A stretch of DNA of 24,768 nt. It comes from a virus (Duplodnaviria; Heunggongvirae; Uroviricota; Caudoviricetes). The translations under genes were made by a program, and so were the position numbers. Every line of letters begins with the position of its first letter. Within the stretch, counting starts at the first letter, position 1. Below the pieces are notes generated by a model that had not been told where the DNA came from, searched no databases, and was given only the letters and a program-made list of their open reading frames with translations. The DNA is taken from positions 1 to 24,768 of the IMG/VR virus record IMGVR_UViG_2778261381_000006; one strand, 5' to 3'. This document shows positions 13,685 through 18,678 of this stretch, piece after piece.

Positions 13685-13717
13685 AATGATTCCATACATA
13701 GTAGGTATGGAATCATT
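13685..13717. repeat. Perfect 13-bp inverted repeat with 7-bp spacer (AATGATTCCATAC-ATAGTAG-GTATGGAATCATT)
   Basis: Exact reverse-complement arms at 13685-13697 and 13705-13717, about 25 bp upstream of the recombinase -35. The architecture matches tyrosine-recombinase core sites such as loxP and FRT. Confidence 0.7.
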
Positions 13718-13762
13718 TAGCCGTTGTTTTTTGAATTTTAAGGGAACCAAGCGTGAGTTTGG

Positions 13763-13792
13763 TGGGAACAAAAACGGCTCCTGTGAGCCGTT
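13763..13792 (-). terminator. Intrinsic terminator after the glutaredoxin gene
   Basis: Stem aacggctc / gagccgtt (loop ctgt) followed on the minus strand by TTTTTGTT. Confidence 0.55.
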
Positions 13793-13796
13793 AAAA

Positions 13797-14042
13797 TTAG
13801 AGAGTGGTGACGTATGCAGCCAGTTCTGTGTATCCGCCAATCGGTTGGCCATCGATCAGTACCTGGGGGATAGTCTCTACCGGTTTGCCAACAATTTCGC
13901 TAAGTTTTTCCTTATCGATACCGGCAGTGGTGATGTCGATGTACTCATAATCACCATAGCCGTGTCCCTTTAGTTGTTTCGCCAGCTCGACCGCACGTTT
14001 GCAATATGAGCAGTTATCTCGTCCGTAGATAACGATAGTCAT
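13797..14042 (-). CDS. Glutaredoxin (GrxA-like, CxxC thiol-disulfide oxidoreductase)
   Basis: Active site CSYC near the N-terminus; GKPVETIPQVLIDGQPIGGYTELAAYV closely matches E. coli glutaredoxin 1. Confidence 0.85.
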   Translation of the reverse strand: MTIVIYGRDNCSYCKRAVELAKQLKGHGYGDYEYIDITTAGIDKEKLSEIVGKPVETIPQVLIDGQPIGGYTELAAYVTTL

Positions 14043-14181
14043 GTTTACCTCATAATAATTATGTGTTACTTAACCAGAAAATAAATATTACTATAAAAGA
14101 TAGGTAAGTAAAAACCTATTTAATGTCTGCAATACATCGTAAACTTGCCTGTTAATCACAACTTAATTTAGTTAATATTTA

Positions 14182-15510
14182 ATGCAACTAACAATGGTAA
14201 GTACGAGAGCATACATGCCTGTTTTTATTTCTGTTGCAATTCTAATGTTTTCCATAATAATTTTGTTTTTAGGTTTACTACTTGAGCCATTTCAAGATTG
14301 GAAGGTTACAGACCAAATTGCTGTATTGAGTAGTTTTATAACGACAGCGGCTTTTTGTGCAACAGCGTGGAACGCCTATGAAGCAAGAAAAAGTGCAAAG
14401 GCAGCACTGGAGGCCGTTAGGATAACTACCGATTCATTGATTGAGATGAGAAAAAATTCTTTCAAAGAATGGTTTGACACTTTATTAAATCAGCATGATG
14501 AGTTGTACAATAATGTCATACCAATCATTGAACAGACAAAAAAACAATTTAATAAAAATGAAATGCATTCGTTTTTTTATCCATTGGTAAGAAAGCATGA
14601 GGTTATTCAGTACATAAAACATATTACCAATATATTAGTCTATGTAGATAACCGATTTTACATAGATGGAAATTGTTTTGATGAAAAAATGGAATATATT
14701 ATTCAATTGAGTGGAAAAATACCACCGCAAATGAAGTTGGTTATTGCAGTTTTTGGATTGGACATCGATTCTCGTGAACCGCAGGATTCAAAAAAACTGT
14801 ATGCTTTATTAAATAAATATGATTTTTTCAAAGATGAAATATTCTTTGATGATGCTTATTCAAGCATGCCTGAAGTAGAGCTATTTATAAAGGATAGATT
14901 TGATAAAATATTTAAAACCAAGATGTTAAAATACTTTTGGAACGTGATTAAGGAATATTATTCTCAAGTTGAAGTCAAAGAAATCTGGGTGGTTCGTCGT
15001 CCGCAAGTTGCTTCATCGGTATTAATGAACTACCAAACACCATTATCTGGTTTAATTGATGATTATTTTAAAAATTTGCCAAATGAGGTAAAGAGCATTT
15101 TTGATGAAGCACTAAAAAAAGCTAATGATAGTGTTACGTCTATTGATGACTATATTCATCGTTTGATCGGTTGCAGAGTCGCGTCGATTTCAGAGCATGT
15201 CCATTTCGAAAGTGAAATACTGAGTAGTGAAAAGGATGTGAAGGATATGATTAAAAATTACATAGAGCAAAGAAAAACTGGAAAAAATGCGGTAAATCTT
15301 GGGCAGTTATATTTCTCGAGTGAGTCAGATGTAATTACAGGTGATCAGTTGAGTGATGCGATCGATGAATATGAGAAAAAGTTGGCACTTATGGCAATAA
15401 ACGATAATGATGATAGTGATAACCTATTGTGCCATATCTATATTAAATCATGTGAGATAGTTGATGAATATAAGCGTGAAACATTAAAATTGGGCGAGTA
15501 CGCACAATAG
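14182..15510 (+). CDS. Membrane-anchored protein of unknown function (2 N-terminal TM helices plus ~380-aa soluble domain); candidate exclusion or abortive-infection factor
   Basis: Markedly AT-rich relative to flanks. Hydrophobic segments MPVFISVAILMFSIIILFLGLLL and IAVLSSFITTAAFCATAW. No catalytic motif recognised. True start may be ATG 14215 (weak GAGAG RBS). Confidence 0.65.
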   Translation: MQLTMVSTRAYMPVFISVAILMFSIIILFLGLLLEPFQDWKVTDQIAVLSSFITTAAFCATAWNAYEARKSAKAALEAVRITTDSLIEMRKNSFKEWFDTLLNQHDELYNNVIPIIEQTKKQFNKNEMHSFFYPLVRKHEVIQYIKHITNILVYVDNRFYIDGNCFDEKMEYIIQLSGKIPPQMKLVIAVFGLDIDSREPQDSKKLYALLNKYDFFKDEIFFDDAYSSMPEVELFIKDRFDKIFKTKMLKYFWNVIKEYYSQVEVKEIWVVRRPQVASSVLMNYQTPLSGLIDDYFKNLPNEVKSIFDEALKKANDSVTSIDDYIHRLIGCRVASISEHVHFESEILSSEKDVKDMIKNYIEQRKTGKNAVNLGQLYFSSESDVITGDQLSDAIDEYEKKLALMAINDNDDSDNLLCHIYIKSCEIVDEYKRETLKLGEYAQ

Positions 15511-15523
15511 GTTGTGCAGATTC

Positions 15524-15551
15524 GAAGCCTCTTTAAATTTTGCGCTGAAAA
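15524..15551. repeat. Direct repeat copy 1 (gaagcctctttaaattttgcgctgaaaa)
   Basis: About 28 bp matching 16445-16474 with 2 mismatches; the two copies flank the lipoprotein gene. Confidence 0.6.
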
Positions 15552-15588
15552 TTGTTATTTTACGGTAAGTAACGCTGTTTTCAGCGCA
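15541..15588. other. Large hairpin in the convergent gap (11-bp stem tgcgctgaaaa / ttttcagcgca, 26-nt loop containing a GGTAAGTA motif)
   Basis: Exact 11-bp inverted repeat; the loop contains ttacggtaagtaacg. Confidence 0.5.
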
Positions 15589-15761
15589 TAAATGTCAGTG
15601 AATAATTTGATGCTTGCTGTAACGATGGTACGCTACGTAAAATCCGATATTTATGAGACTGATTGCAGGTAAGGACTTACATAGCGCACAAAAATTGCTG
15701 ATACCAGATGCAATATATGTTTAATGTCAAATTTTAGATAGGGGCGTATACGCCCCTGTCA

Positions 15762-17066: not shown

Positions 17067-17070
17067 AATT

Positions 17071-17157
17071 TGGTGGGGAGTGATGGAGTCGAACCACCCG
17101 AGTCGCAATGACAGTAGATTTACAGTCTACACCGCTACCTCTACGGACTAACTCCCC
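17071..17157 (-). tRNA. tRNA-Tyr (anticodon GUA), type II
   Basis: Acceptor GGGGAGU/ACUCCCC, anticodon arm GUAGA-CUGUAAA-UCUAC, T-arm GGUGG-UUCGACU-CCAUC, long variable arm, encoded CCA. Confidence 0.7.
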
Positions 17158-17162
17158 TAAAT

Positions 17163-17237
17163 TGGCGATGGTGGGTGGATTCGAACCACCGACCAGTTGG
17201 TTAACAGCCAACTGCTCTACCGCTGAGCTACACCATC
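17163..17237 (-). tRNA. tRNA-Asn (anticodon GUU)
   Basis: Canonical cloverleaf: acceptor GAUGGUG/CACCAUC, D-arm GCUC-AGCGGUA-GAGC, anticodon arm GUUGG-CUGUUAA-CCAAC, T-arm GGUGG-UUCGAAU-CCACC, encoded CCA. Confidence 0.8.
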
Positions 17238-17239
17238 AA

Positions 17240-18020
17240 TTCAGCACTGCCAGTATTTATTACTCAGCAGTGCCAATCGCGGCGGTGTTAGTTTTTGCCA
17301 ATAAACGCACCGCTACTTGCACTTTTCGTTAGTGCCAGACGTTTTCGACTTCGCTCAATAGAAGGCAAAATCTTTAAGTAGATGATGTTTCTGAGGACAG
17401 CACCTACTTTGTAATTTACATAATGCGGTGTATGGAATCATTTGTTGTGAAAACAGGCACCAATGGCAACAGTGGTTAAACCTACACAACAATCCTGTCT
17501 TCACAACGTTGAGGCCACTACCCCGATTGAATGTTTGCCCAACATGTTACATATCAACGTTCGCCAGTATCTCTGTGAATAGAACCTTAGAATTGATAAA
17601 AATGTAATGGCCTCAACGTTGTGTGCTGGCTAACCATACCAGCCGGGCTACGTCGCCGCTTTTTAACCCAGTATAAACGACATAATTGAACAAAATGACG
17701 TAACAGGATGGGCGGTCAGTGGCTAAGAATCCGGGAGTGATATGGAGTTGGAAATATACCGACCGCCCATTCTGTTACTTCATCGGAGAGGGCATGGGTG
17801 GTGCCGTATCATGCCCTCTCCTGCGTTCTGCAATCACACTCGCTCAGTGTGTCCCATTTCGGTAACGAGGCTGGAAACTGACCTCGCTGGTGTTTGGCTT
17901 ATTAGGCTACTGCCAGATAGACTTCTTCGTTTGCACTTGTATTTAAGTTCAAACAGTCGCGTCTCAACGAAAACAAAGCCATCTTATACATAAAAGATAA
18001 GTAAGTAAATACTTATCGTG
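17240..18020. other. ORF-poor, highly structured region (candidate ncRNA, tRNA-operon leader, or origin/partition-like region)
   Basis: No credible ORF. Several long perfect or near-perfect inverted repeats: 17444-17457/17494-17507, 17502-17516/17609-17623 (15 bp), 17703-17718/17761-17776 (16 bp, 1 mismatch), 17785-17796/17810-17821 (12 bp), plus GATAAGTA-agtaaa-TACTTATC at 17995-18016. Confidence 0.4.
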
Positions 18021-18026
18021 ATGTTT

Positions 18027-18317
18027 TTATTCGGTTGTGACTTTTTTGATCATGGCCACTCTACGATCAGGTGTTCTTGTGATGGTTGCAGTGAATCGTT
18101 TCGCTTGGATAGTAATGGTTTCGTTCTCCTTAAGTTGCCCGTAGCGAGTTTCCACCAGGGTGCCAAGACGCCACAGGCAATCATCGATACGTTTATGACT
18201 GGCAAATTTAATCAGCAGCAGTTTTACGACTAACTGACCTACGTAAAAGGCGAATCCGACTCCAGTCGCGATGAAATAGTGTACCAACCACCAGTCCCAA
18301 GAAGTTAAATTGCTCAT
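18027..18317 (-). CDS. Small membrane protein (96 aa), unknown function
   Basis: N-terminal hydrophobic helix WWLVHYFIATGVGFAFYVGQLVV; start overlaps the stop of the upstream small ORF (ATGA). Confidence 0.5.
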   Translation of the reverse strand: MSNLTSWDWWLVHYFIATGVGFAFYVGQLVVKLLLIKFASHKRIDDCLWRLGTLVETRYGQLKENETITIQAKRFTATITRTPDRRVAMIKKVTTE

Positions 18318-18466
18318 TTTCTCACCTTTGTTTCATGAATTACCCGATACACACGCTTTCCGATGCACAGTGTTTTGGTTTTAAGTTCCTGCTTAATTAA
18401 GTCACGACAGATGCCGAAGCCGATAAGGAAACCAGCCATAAAAGCTAATGAGATGTATGGAATCAT
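18314..18466 (-). CDS. Small hydrophobic peptide (~50 aa), uncertain
   Basis: Minus-strand ORF MIPYISLAFMAGFLIGFGICRDL... Its ATG overlaps the stop of the 18463-18678 ORF and its stop overlaps the next ATG. Not in the ORF track (under its size cutoff). Confidence 0.3.
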   Translation of the reverse strand: MIPYISLAFMAGFLIGFGICRDLIKQELKTKTLCIGKRVYRVIHETKVRK

Positions 18467-18678
18467 TCTAACGCTCCTGATTCTACTAATTGCTGTAGCA
18501 ATACTTTCCCTTTATCAGTTAACTGGTAGTTGGCCGAGCACCACGTTTCAGAAACGTTTGCAACCAACCCTAACCGCTCTAACTTAGCCCGCGTTTTAGG
18601 CTTCCAGTACTCAGGGAACTCCGGCCACTTACTGATTTCATGAAGCGTTTCCTTCTCCCGCTTACTTAATACGATCAT
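18463..18678 (-). CDS. Hypothetical protein (71 aa)
   Basis: Good RBS (GGAGATTAAGG) before the ATG. Preferred over the overlapping plus-strand ORF 18363-18587. Confidence 0.5.
   Translation of the reverse strand: MIVLSKREKETLHEISKWPEFPEYWKPKTRAKLERLGLVANVSETWCSANYQLTDKGKVLLQQLVESGALE

What the first reader, a model, noticed from the sequence alone, without database searches (positions are those of the whole stretch)
13685..18467. Exact 13-mer GTATGGAATCATT recurs at three further places
Besides the two arms of the palindrome (13685-13717), the same 13-mer occurs at about 17430-17442 (inside the structured ORF-free region) and 18455-18467 (at an overlapping gene junction). Chance recurrence of a 13-mer in 25 kb is very unlikely. 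The extra copies are single half-sites with no good inverted partner, so they may be accessory or arm-type binding sites, iteron-like elements, or a conserved initiation context (two copies coincide with ATGATTCCATAC = MIPY starts).
Basis: seen in the sequence. Interest (0 to 1): 0.5.

Follow-up and report, generated by a model that had tools for sequence, protein, structure and literature searches.

The report
Scattered half-sites of a recombinase target
A short DNA word that forms both arms of a lox-like target next to a plasmid-phage recombinase gene also occurs as conserved single copies a few kilobases away on both sides, one written over the DNA polymerase gene, so these are probably extra landing sites for that recombinase rather than chance repeats.

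Summary
The window is an SSU5/pHCM2/pMT1-family phage-plasmid, about 97% identical to E. coli phage Cyrano.

In two complete relatives (108-110 kb) every exact copy lies within about 6.5 kb of the palindrome, at orthologous positions. About 75 loci from Escherichia, Klebsiella, Salmonella, Yersinia, Kluyvera, Serratia and Nissabacter keep the same site classes. The core GATGTATGGAATCA is nearly invariant while the flanks vary. In dnaE, 0 of 4 third-codon positions vary inside the motif against 19 of 20 outside.

The palindrome (11-13 bp arms, always a 7-bp spacer, 55-115 bp upstream of int) travels with the tyrosine recombinase into non-phage megaplasmids. There both arms change together (GTCTGGAGTCA).

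Best reading: the single copies are isolated, non-recombining binding half-sites for that recombinase. They are clustered and mirror-oriented around its lox-like core. The biochemical function is unproven. Arm-type sites, iterons, start-codon context, paralogous coding, promoters and shufflon-type inversion were tested and are not supported.

The parts
13685..13717 (.). Perfect palindrome AATGATTCCATAC-ATAGTAG-GTATGGAATCATT (13+7+13), about 100 bp upstream of int. I read it as the lox/dif-type core site of the adjacent tyrosine recombinase. It also marks the boundary between the conserved backbone and the variable cargo.
   Evidence: It is present 55-115 bp upstream of int in every relative, always with a 7-bp AT-rich spacer whose sequence varies. 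The arms change symmetrically to GTCTGGAGTCA in Pantoea, Rahnella, Xenorhabdus and Providencia. Homology with relatives breaks at 13716-13737.
12483..13586 (-). Tyrosine recombinase (Int, 367 aa), the proposed binder of the motif.
   Evidence: Pfam Phage_integrase and Phage_int_M. AF2 model pLDDT 86, with an all-helical N-terminal half. Best fold matches are lambda Int, Tn1549 Int, XerH and IntI. It is a core gene of the family: 786 PLSDB records carry Int at >=80% identity and 781 carry DnaE at >=80%.
7654..7669 (-). Single half-site GATGTATGGAATCATT overprinted on dnaE codons 84-89 (C-M-E-S-L), 253 nt into the gene.
   Evidence: The site is exact in 27 distinct haplotypes. Third-codon positions vary at 0 of 4 sites in the motif and 19 of 20 in the flanks (Fisher p=0.0005). 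The flanking residues vary. The loop lacks CMESL in K. oxytoca, Xenorhabdus and Providencia, which also lack the site.
17427..17442 (+). Single half-site (GGT+GTATGGAATCATT) in non-coding DNA, about 190 nt upstream of tRNA-Asn (tRNAs on the - strand).
   Evidence: It is an invariant island in poorly conserved flanks (majority fraction 0.58 in flanks against 0.99 in the site).
18452..18467 (+). Single half-site GATGTATGGAATCATT covering the ATGA stop/start overlap and the first five codons (MIPYI, - strand) of a conserved 50-aa membrane-peptide ORF.
   Evidence: About two dozen distinct contexts, 11 of 14 site columns invariant.
12970..12983 (-). Decayed relic (GGGGTTTGGAATCA) of an int-internal copy. 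The copy is exact (GATGTATGGAATCAAGG, codons D-V-W-N-Q-G) in the pMT1, pHCM2, Klebsiella, K. oxytoca and L084 lineages.
   Evidence: It is less constrained than the other sites (8 of 14 columns invariant) and is partly explained by the conserved W-x-Q-G in the protein.
12102..12488 (+). HTH protein (128 aa, equivalent to CYRAN_45, called 'putative repressor'). It converges on int and is the alternative candidate binder.
   Evidence: It is expressed in the LF82 lysogen. It is absent next to int and its palindrome in the Pantoea and Rahnella megaplasmids.
13736..17160 (.). Variable cargo region between the palindrome and the tRNA cluster (glutaredoxin, 442-aa and 184-aa ORFs, tRNA-Ser/Thr/Tyr).
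   Evidence: The distance from the tRNA-adjacent half-site to the palindrome ranges from 1.2 to 5.7 kb among relatives, whereas the palindrome-to-dnaE-site distance stays at about 6.0-6.3 kb.
22081..22093 (-). Near-copy CTATGGAATTATT (2 mismatches) inside a window-specific insertion. Probably chance.
   Evidence: 0.64 such hits expected. It lies in DNA absent from Cyrano and breaks the orientation rule.

Best explanation
The palindrome at 13685-13717 is the core recombination site (two inverted recombinase-binding arms around a 7-bp crossover spacer) of the adjacent tyrosine recombinase. It is most likely a Cre/loxP-like multimer-resolution module of this plasmid-prophage. The three further 13-mers in the window, plus a fourth inside int in sister lineages, are isolated single arms of that site, extended by a conserved GAT. 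Each would bind one recombinase monomer without being a recombination substrate.

They act in cis with the core. All lie within about 6.5 kb of it. All those on one side have the orientation of the nearer arm, so any left copy plus any right copy form a 'split full site'. My inferred mechanism is that Int bound at these auxiliary sites bridges to Int on the palindrome, since tyrosine recombinases assemble as tetramers. This would form loops that raise local Int occupancy and/or modulate expression of int and the flanking replication genes. Auxiliary operators inside coding regions do this for LacI O2, and TnpI motifs at the ends of Tn5401 work in a comparable way.

Shown: the sites are real, selected at the DNA level, clustered and mirror-oriented, and the palindrome is genetically coupled to Int. 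Inferred: Int is the binder, the sites do not recombine, and they act by looping or regulation.
For: (1) Non-randomness. Five exact copies against 0 expected.
(2) Clustering. Two complete relatives have exact copies only at these orthologous places. Cyrano (108 kb) has 5. The Klebsiella phage-plasmid (110 kb) has 6, all in L005, with only one chance-level 1-mismatch hit elsewhere.
(3) Consistency. About 75 loci show the same classes and the same mirror orientation without exception.
(4) DNA-level selection. The core plus GAT is about 99% conserved against 58-79% in the flanks. In dnaE, 0 of 4 wobble positions vary in the motif against 19 of 20 outside, p=0.0005. The peptide loop that hosts the site is otherwise variable, and it is different in lineages lacking the site.
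(5) Coupling of palindrome and Int. The architecture and position upstream of int are the same in the phage-plasmids and in the non-phage Pantoea and Rahnella megaplasmids. Both arms change symmetrically, and a hybrid arm pair occurs in Photorhabdus. The megaplasmids lack the HTH neighbour.
(6) Int fold. Int is a lambda-Int/Xer-like fold with a helical N-terminal half and no beta-sheet arm-binding domain in the AF2 model. That fits a recombinase reading one long arm per monomer.
(7) Role of Int. Int is a persistent gene in a family that lives as a plasmid (PMC7969092).
(8) Precedent. Tn5401 carries a TnpI binding motif near each transposon end in addition to the resolution site, and TnpI binding regulates expression (PMC7157771). 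XerD-binding sites act without recombination (PMC10945525).
Against: No binding or recombination data exist, so the binder is inferred only from genetic linkage. Phage-plasmids of the variant-arm clade (Xenorhabdus, Providencia, L095) and the megaplasmids have the palindrome but no half-sites. The half-sites are therefore dispensable for the basic Int function, and no covariation test between arms and half-sites was possible.

SSU5 has lost int, the HTH gene and the palindrome, yet keeps two exact half-sites and one with a single mismatch. That deletion looks recent. The mirror orientation rests on only four independent site classes (chance about 1 in 8). Distances of 4-6 kb are long for looping. 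The int-internal copy is decaying in this window's lineage.
Confidence: 0.45

Rival explanations
1. The motif is the operator of the neighbouring HTH protein (CYRAN_45-like 'putative repressor'). The palindrome would be a bivalent operator and the single copies monovalent operators, as with the asymmetric C1 operators scattered over phage P1 (my recollection of the P1 literature, not read here). They would keep replication genes silent in the plasmid-prophage.
For: The HTH gene is always next to int in the phage-plasmids. It is expressed in the LF82 lysogen and is annotated as putative repressor (PMC9928086). SSU5, which lacks the HTH-int-palindrome segment, is described as virulent (PMC5427195 abstract). 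The half-sites occur only in phage-plasmids, not in the megaplasmids.
Against: The same palindrome architecture, with co-varied arms, sits upstream of int in Pantoea and Rahnella megaplasmids that have no such HTH gene. Variant-clade phage-plasmids have the HTH gene but no half-sites. No copy of the motif lies upstream of the HTH gene itself. Two to three sites lie inside coding sequences, and no sigma-70-like promoter overlaps any site. The sites cluster around int rather than being genome-wide.
Confidence: 0.15
2. The single copies are recombination-competent or recombination-derived sites. Either they are asymmetric secondary sites like the sfx sites of the Rci shufflon (one conserved arm plus spacer; recalled, not read here) that allow Int-driven inversion or excision. 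Or they are scars left when cassettes were inserted at the palindrome (integron- or IMEX-like).
For: One-armed sites are what Rci uses. The variable cargo begins exactly at the outer edge of the palindrome. In pMT1 the caf1 capsule operon abuts it. The distance from the left half-site to the palindrome varies from 1.2 to 5.7 kb. Mirror orientation is what serial insertions into a full site would leave.
Against: The 7 bases next to each single arm do not match the palindrome spacer or each other across lineages, so there is no overlap homology. The junction predicted for inversion between the dnaE and 18455 sites is found in 0 of 380 matching plasmids. No degenerate copies flank the cargo genes. 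The left edge of the variable region is the tRNA cluster, not the half-site. The dnaE and int copies lie inside intact genes and cannot be insertion junctions. The SSU5 deletion end-points are not at motif copies.
Confidence: 0.1
3. The element acts at the RNA level or as a promoter. The palindrome would be a conserved hairpin in the int leader. The single copies would give complementary 15-16-nt stretches on transcripts from the two sides, for example dnaE mRNA pairing with the start region of the 50-aa peptide mRNA. Alternatively TGGAATCAT would be an extended -10 element.
For: Symmetric arm changes are also what a hairpin would show. The sense strands on the two sides of the palindrome are complementary. 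The 18455 copy covers a start codon of a small hydrophobic peptide. TGGAATCAT matches TGnTATAAT at 6 of 8 specified positions (my reading of the sequence).
Against: Within the canonical clade the arms never vary, with no G-U or compensatory variants among roughly 80 lineages, while the loop varies freely and even flips. Palindromic symmetry is kept whatever the orientation of the neighbouring cargo gene. An internal sense promoter at dnaE codon 85 makes no sense. No promoter-like sites were called. There is no Rfam family.
Confidence: 0.07
4. The copies are chance or neutral leftovers with no present function.
For: The int-internal copy is partly explained by the conserved W-x-Q-G coding and is decaying. 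Some lineages lack individual copies: K. oxytoca lacks the dnaE copy and Nissabacter the int copy.
Against: 0 copies are expected by chance. The sites are invariant across genera while the flanks and wobble positions change. They cluster near the palindrome in two complete genomes.
Confidence: 0.03

Closest known systems
Cre/loxP of phage-plasmid P1 (also FLP/FRT and XerCD/dif)
   Same: A tyrosine recombinase gene next to a site made of two inverted arms of about 13 bp around a short asymmetric spacer, carried by a plasmid-prophage. The role would be plasmid multimer resolution (inferred).
   Different: The spacer is 7 bp, not 8. Int shares no detectable sequence similarity with any solved chain, and Cre ranks only 41st and lower in the fold search (E about 0.2), behind lambda Int, Tn1549 Int and Xer. 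To my knowledge P1 has no conserved isolated lox half-sites around loxP. Recombination is untested here.
TnpI recombinase of Tn5401/Tn4430 (irs core IR1-IR2 plus accessory DR motifs; DR2 copy near each transposon end)
   Same: One tyrosine recombinase recognises the same short motif both as an inverted pair (the core, upstream of its own gene) and as single copies kilobases away on both sides in mirror orientation. Binding there is regulatory, not recombinational (PMC7157771).
   Different: There is no transposase and there are no terminal inverted repeats here. The half-sites lie in a DNA polymerase gene, at a gene junction and in non-coding DNA of a 100-kb phage-plasmid. There are no accessory direct repeats adjacent to the core.
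XerD-binding sites (XDS) around dif in Bacillus subtilis
   Same: Stand-alone binding sites for one recombinase, scattered around the full recombination site and acting without recombination (Karaboja et al. 2021, as cited in PMC10945525).
   Different: That is a chromosomal terminus and SMC unloading. Here the element is a plasmid-phage and the scale is about 12 kb. No SMC link is known.
Auxiliary operators acting by looping (lac O2 inside lacZ, gal OI inside galE, flanking FL/FR sites of coliphage 186 CI); established textbook knowledge, recalled and not read here
   Same: A main palindromic site near a promoter, plus weaker or partial auxiliary sites, some overprinted on coding sequence, on both sides.
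   Different: Those proteins are dedicated repressors and the distances are 0.1-0.4 kb (2-4 kb for lambda OL-OR). Here the presumed binder is a recombinase and the distances are 0.7-6.8 kb.
Rci/sfx shufflon sites of plasmid R64 (recalled, not read here)
   Same: Sites with only one conserved arm next to a 7-bp spacer.
   Different: sfx sites share the spacer and flank invertible segments. Here the spacer-side bases differ between sites, and no inversion products were found.

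Membership tests
Tyrosine-recombinase core site (lox/FRT/dif type): applied to the palindrome | Two inverted recombinase-binding arms of about 11-13 bp | tested here: met
   13-bp perfect arms in the window. An 11-bp core is conserved in all relatives.
Tyrosine-recombinase core site (lox/FRT/dif type): applied to the palindrome | Central spacer of 6-8 bp, asymmetric, fixed in length | tested here: met
   Exactly 7 bp in 13 or more lineages. It is AT-rich and its sequence varies.
Tyrosine-recombinase core site (lox/FRT/dif type): applied to the palindrome | Genetic linkage to a tyrosine recombinase, with co-evolution | tested here: met
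   It lies 55-115 bp upstream of int in the phage-plasmids and in unrelated megaplasmids. The arms change symmetrically with Int divergence.
Tyrosine-recombinase core site (lox/FRT/dif type): applied to the palindrome | Recombination between two copies catalysed by the recombinase | not testable with these tools
   Needs an in vivo or in vitro resolution assay.
Tyrosine-recombinase core site: applied to the single copies | A second inverted arm across a 6-8 bp spacer | tested here: not met
   5 of 13 matches at the expected position for 18455 (sequence). No partner appears at up to 3 mismatches.
Arm-type sites of heterobivalent integrases (lambda Int type) | Sequence distinct from the core-type arms | tested here: not met
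   The single copies are identical to the core arms.
Arm-type sites of heterobivalent integrases (lambda Int type) | Located within roughly 100-200 bp of the core inside attP | tested here: not met
   Distances are 0.7-6.8 kb.
Arm-type sites of heterobivalent integrases (lambda Int type) | Integrase carries an N-terminal beta-sheet arm-binding domain | tested here: not met
   In the AF2 model (pLDDT 86), residues 1-200 are helical, with only isolated bridge residues and no sheet. Pfam finds no arm-binding family in Int, although relatives at 24-34% identity carry PF13356.
Iterons | Several direct repeats in tandem, regularly spaced, at an origin or next to the rep gene | tested here: not met
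   The copies are single, kilobases apart and on both strands. RepA is about 20 kb away in Cyrano.
Dispersed asymmetric repressor operators (P1 C1 type) | Operators overlap promoters of the controlled operons and are spread over the genome | tested here: not met
   No promoter-like sites at any copy. Two to three copies are inside coding sequences. All copies lie within about 13 kb in genomes of 108-110 kb.
Dispersed asymmetric repressor operators (P1 C1 type) | Bound by the lysogeny repressor | not testable with these tools
   Needs binding assays with the HTH protein encoded at 12102-12488.
Shufflon-type (Rci/sfx) sites | Spacer shared between sites, and inversion products present in populations | tested here: not met
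   The spacer-side bases differ between sites. The predicted inversion junction is found in 0 of 380 plasmids.
Stand-alone recombinase binding sites with a non-recombination role (Tn5401 TnpI end motifs, XDS) | Isolated copies of one recombinase-binding arm near the full site, conserved | tested here: met
Stand-alone recombinase binding sites with a non-recombination role (Tn5401 TnpI end motifs, XDS) | Recombinase shown to bind them, with a phenotype | not testable with these tools
   Needs EMSA or ChIP and site mutagenesis.
Conserved translation-initiation context / paralogous coding | Copies coincide with real gene starts or homologous peptides | tested here: not met
   Only 18466 is a real start. 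dnaE reads CMESL on the other strand. int reads DVWNQG. Two copies are non-coding. The 13686 ORF is antisense to grx.

The most novel reading that the evidence does not exclude
A tyrosine recombinase of the SSU5/pHCM2/pMT1 phage-plasmids has acquired a second, non-recombinational job. Monomers bound to a nested, mirror-oriented set of half-sites, one of them overprinted on the DNA polymerase gene, would pair across the lox-like core as 'split full sites'. This would build an orientation-dependent loop or barrier structure around the resolution site. That structure would control the phage replication module (lysogeny versus lytic replication) or confine replication or translocation events to the resolution site. 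It would be a plasmid-scale analogue of the Ter/XDS-dif organisation of chromosome termini.
Probability: 0.15. Interest if true: 0.75.

Novelty: new variant of a known kind. Interest (0 to 1): 0.55.

Why it matters
The family includes pMT1 of Yersinia pestis, pHCM2 of Salmonella Typhi and hundreds of resistance-carrying Klebsiella, E. coli and Enterobacter plasmids. Its maintenance and lysis-lysogeny control are essentially unstudied.

A defined lox-like site with its recombinase would be a handle on plasmid stability and on the cargo hotspot next to it. In pMT1 the caf1 capsule operon sits at that hotspot.

The half-sites are a clean case of a DNA signal imposed on a protein-coding sequence. 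If they are recombinase landing sites with a regulatory or architectural role, that adds a well-conserved example to the few known cases where site-specific recombinases work away from their crossover site (TnpI of Tn5401, XerD/XDS). The prediction is directly testable with three oligonucleotides and one purified protein.

Tried and rejected
- **Sigma-70 promoters.** Promoter and terminator scans around all sites found no promoter-like sites. They found only the glutaredoxin terminator at 13773-13792.
- **Known RNA families.** Rfam gathering and E-value scans of the window and of 17200-18100 returned tRNAs and a cspA thermoregulator, but nothing at the motif.
- **Replication polarity.** Cumulative GC skew of the whole Cyrano genome follows gene orientation, with no turning point near the palindrome. 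This gives no support for an origin or terminus there.
- **Inversion between the dnaE and 18455 copies.** The predicted recombinant junction was found in 0 of 380 plasmids.
- **Cassette scars.** No degenerate copies lie in the cargo region at up to 3 mismatches. The left edge of the variable DNA is the tRNA cluster.
- **Covariation of half-sites with variant arms.** This test was impossible, because variant-arm elements have no half-sites. An apparent covariation of the outer two bases in K. oxytoca is not repeated in L084.
- **Int-less lineages.** Only SSU5 was found, and its deletion looks recent, so it is uninformative.
- **HTH autoregulation.** No motif and no clear conserved operator lies upstream of the HTH gene.
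- **Sequence search of Int against solved structures.** No hit.
- **Literature.** The papers on SSU5-like phage-plasmids that I searched mention tyrosine recombinases as persistent genes. The term searches (integrase, recombinase, dimer, resolution and similar) turned up no description of a site or of half-sites. One 2026 preprint listed by the search could not be opened.

Full report
**What the window is.** The ORFs encode the following (Pfam):
- a DnaE-type polymerase (4401-7919, - strand)
- CobS-like and CobT-like proteins
- a 128-aa HTH protein (12102-12488, + strand)
- a tyrosine recombinase, 'Int' (12483-13586, - strand)
- a glutaredoxin
- a DNA ligase
- a primase
- a T4 gp32-like SSB

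Four tRNA genes lie at 16610-17237 on the - strand. Megablast places the window in the SSU5/pHCM2/pMT1 family of phage-plasmids. The closest records are E. coli phages Cyrano (pLF82) and CMS-2020a, at 94-97% identity for the queried 12000-19000 stretch, and the Cyrano annotation is shown.

**Checking the observation.** GTATGGAATCATT occurs five times exactly, with none in 100 shuffles:
- 7654-7666 (-)
- 13685-13697 (-) and 13705-13717 (+), the two arms of a 13+7+13 palindrome
- 17430-17442 (+)
- 18455-18467 (+)

The finding's text omits the copy at 7654. It lies 253 nt into dnaE and is read there as C-M-E-S-L. The 18455 copy covers the ATGA stop/start overlap and the first codons (MIPYI) of a conserved 50-aa ORF on the - strand. 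The 17430 copy is non-coding, about 190 nt upstream of tRNA-Asn. The 'MIPY' ORF at 13686 is spurious, because it runs antisense to the glutaredoxin gene and its terminator. Paralogous coding and 'initiation context' therefore do not explain the repeats.

**Distribution in whole genomes and in relatives.**
- The complete Cyrano genome (108,379 bp) has exactly the same five orthologous copies, and nothing else even at 2 mismatches.
- A complete Klebsiella phage-plasmid (109,627 bp) has six exact 11-mer copies, all in the 25 kb around int. Elsewhere it has only one chance-level 1-mismatch hit.
- I fetched about 75 loci from Escherichia, Klebsiella, Salmonella (pHCM2-like), Yersinia pestis pMT1, Kluyvera, Buttiauxella and IMG/VR contigs, and then Nissabacter and Serratia. 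In these loci the same site classes recur, allowing for truncated contigs and occasional lineage-specific losses or single-base variants. They are two sites about 1 kb apart on the ligase/tRNA side, the palindrome, the dnaE site about 6.0-6.3 kb away on the other side, and in many lineages a further copy about 720 bp into int.
- That int-internal copy has decayed in this window to GGGGTTTGGAATCA at 12970-12983.
- Without exception, copies on one side of the palindrome share the orientation of the nearer arm.

**Evidence for selection on the DNA.** Alignments show the motif as an invariant island. Across roughly 20-30 distinct sequence contexts per class, the 14 positions GAT+GTATGGAATCA have a mean majority fraction of 0.99. 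The flanks score 0.58-0.79.

In dnaE, 27 haplotypes all carry the exact site. None of the 4 third-codon positions inside the motif varies, against 19 of 20 in the flanking 60 nt (Fisher p=0.0005). The amino acids on both sides do vary: MR, KG, NG, SG, GG, ER or GR before the site, and ERGR, VRDR or VRER after it.

In K. oxytoca, Xenorhabdus and Providencia relatives the same DnaE loop has unrelated residues and no motif. It therefore looks as though the peptide CMESL is there because of the DNA word, not the reverse.

The int-internal copy is weaker evidence. Only 8 of 14 columns are invariant, and part of it is forced by the conserved W-x-Q-G. The extra 7-nt identity between the 7654 and 18455 copies in this window is not conserved within the clade.

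**What the palindrome is.** In every relative an inverted pair of the motif lies 55-115 bp upstream of int. The spacer is always 7 bp and AT-rich, but its sequence differs: ctactat, ctattaa, ttggtag, tatataa and others. Some spacers are exact reverse complements of each other in sister lineages.

Int homologues at 44-50% identity occur in two settings. One is diverged SSU5-like phage-plasmids of Xenorhabdus and Providencia. The other is non-phage megaplasmids of Pantoea and Rahnella, which have no HTH neighbour. All of these carry the same 7-bp-spaced palindrome upstream of int, but with both arms changed to GTCTGGAGTCA. Photorhabdus has a hybrid pair.

The AF2 model of Int (pLDDT 86) has a helical N-terminal half with no sheet, followed by a catalytic domain. 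Foldseek matches it best to lambda Int, Tn1549 Int, XerH, XerA and IntI.

Int is as widespread in PLSDB as the family's DnaE: 786 records against 781 at >=80% identity, with matching host counts. This agrees with the report that tyrosine recombinases are persistent genes of the SSU5 supergroup (PMC7969092).

My inference is that the palindrome is the cognate core site of Int, most plausibly a Cre/loxP-like multimer-resolution module. It also marks the edge of a cargo hotspot. Homology between the window and its relatives stops at 13716-13737. In pMT1 the caf1 operon abuts the site.

**What the single copies are.** They have exactly the arm sequence, and nearly all add a conserved GAT on the spacer-proximal side. 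The palindrome spacers do not show this GAT. They have no second arm. They therefore look like high-affinity sites for one monomer of whatever reads the arms.

They are confined to the clade with the canonical arms (Int >=56% identical). They are absent from all six variant-arm elements examined. They are therefore an added layer, not part of the minimal system.

Their clustering within about 6.5 kb of the core in genomes of about 110 kb argues for a cis relationship with the core. By my estimate, about (13/109)^3 to (13/109)^4 would be expected if the copies were placed at random. The mirror orientation points the same way, although chance alone would give it about 1 time in 8 with four site classes.

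I propose auxiliary, non-recombining Int sites that bridge to the core through the recombinase's tetramer-forming surfaces. This would act as a loop or a local-concentration device, possibly with regulatory consequences for int, dnaE and the ligase-tRNA operon. Two precedents exist:
- The TnpI motif near each end of Tn5401, in addition to the resolution site, with TnpI binding regulating expression (PMC7157771).
- XerD-binding sites that act without recombination (PMC10945525).

I also recall, but did not read here, auxiliary operators inside coding regions (lac O2, gal OI). None of the binding or looping steps is shown.

**Rivals.**
- *HTH operator network (P1 C1-like).* For it: the gene's position, its expression in the lysogen (PMC9928086), and the description of SSU5 as virulent. 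SSU5 lacks the HTH-int segment. Against it: the HTH-less megaplasmids that still have the palindrome, variant-clade phage-plasmids that have the HTH gene but no half-sites, the absence of a site upstream of the HTH gene, the absence of promoters at the sites, and the local clustering.
- *Recombination-competent or scar sites (Rci/sfx- or integron/IMEX-like).* Against it: no spacer homology, 0 of 380 plasmids with the predicted inversion junction, no degenerate copies around the cargo, and sites lying inside intact genes.
- *RNA hairpin, RNA pairing or promoter.* Against it: strict sequence invariance of the arms without compensatory variants inside the clade, while the loop varies and flips. 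The symmetry is also kept regardless of the neighbouring gene's orientation.
- *Neutrality.* Against it.

**Limits.**
- SSU5 keeps the half-sites despite having lost int. It is about 97-98% identical to pHCM2-type sequences in the region shown, so the loss is probably too recent to be informative.
- No covariation test of half-sites against arms was possible.
- Everything about binding, recombination and function is inferred.

**Verdict.** The lox-like module is an ordinary kind of thing. The conserved, clustered, mirror-oriented half-sites are an unusual variant with few precedents, and I found no description of them in the papers I could search. Interest 0.55.

Noticed in passing
window 17238-18026 (- strand): An ORF-free stretch of about 790 nt between the 96-aa ORF and tRNA-Asn contains long blocks almost invariant across genera. 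Examples are TTGTTTTCGTTGAGACGCGACTGTTTGAAC and CCAGCGAGGTCAGTTTCCAGCCTCGT...GGGACACACTGAGCGAGTGTGATTGC, with several obvious hairpins. It has no Rfam match. It may be an undescribed structured RNA or an origin-like region of SSU5-family phage-plasmids.
   Followed up: partly
window 13698-13704, compared with L006, L008, L013 and L084: The 7-bp spacer of the palindrome is flipped between related lineages. ctattaa (pMT1/pHCM2) is the reverse complement of ttaatag (Buttiauxella, Rahnella). tatataa (K. oxytoca) is the reverse complement of ttatata (L084, Nissabacter). So the loop inverts during evolution while the arms stay fixed.
   Followed up: partly
window 13736-17160 and 21540-23514: Two cargo regions differ from Cyrano. 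One lies next to the palindrome (442-aa phrog_18168 protein, 184-aa CYRAN_43-like protein on the other strand, extra tRNA-Tyr). The other is an insertion carrying a 137-aa ORF and a 417-aa Sel1-repeat protein between the 260-aa ORF and the primase.
   Followed up: partly
window 3704-4122 (+): A full-length cspA thermoregulator leader (RF01766, 185.7 bits) with a cold-shock protein ORF (3786-4097) sits on the phage-plasmid.
   Followed up: no
one IMG/VR locus among L017-L085, at the dnaE site (context ttgctaaagaatctatgagatgtatgagatGTATGGAATCA): One relative has an in-frame 9-nt tandem duplication (ATGAGATGT) immediately before the dnaE half-site. It adds M-R-C to the DnaE loop. This fits the loop being tolerant of change while the motif itself is kept.
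   Followed up: no
L006, L007, L010 and L011, about 3.2 kb from the palindrome, inside cobT: The pMT1/pHCM2 group has a further 1-mismatch copy (GCATGGAATCA, coding G-M-E-S) in cobT, in the orientation expected for that side. It is absent from the window.
   Followed up: no
L009 (SSU5, NC_018843.1) 20597-20762: Phage SSU5, the reference genome of the family, has a deletion running from just after tRNA-Asn to just before cobT. It removes the cargo, the palindrome, int, the HTH gene and the 70-aa ORF. SSU5 is described as virulent in PMC5427195. This may be why it does not behave as a plasmid prophage.
   Followed up: partly
L088 14481-16802 (Xenorhabdus phage-plasmid): The CobS-like AAA_5 gene of this relative carries a LAGLIDADG_3 domain, which suggests an intein or homing-endonuclease insertion.
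   Followed up: no
window 18314-18466 (- strand): The 50-aa ORF whose start is covered by a half-site encodes an N-terminal hydrophobic helix followed by a basic, Cys-containing tail (MIPYISLAFMAGFLIGFGICRDLIKQELKTKTLCIGKRVYRVIHETKV..). This resembles small membrane toxins of the Hok type. Only a PHROG of unknown function matches.
   Followed up: no
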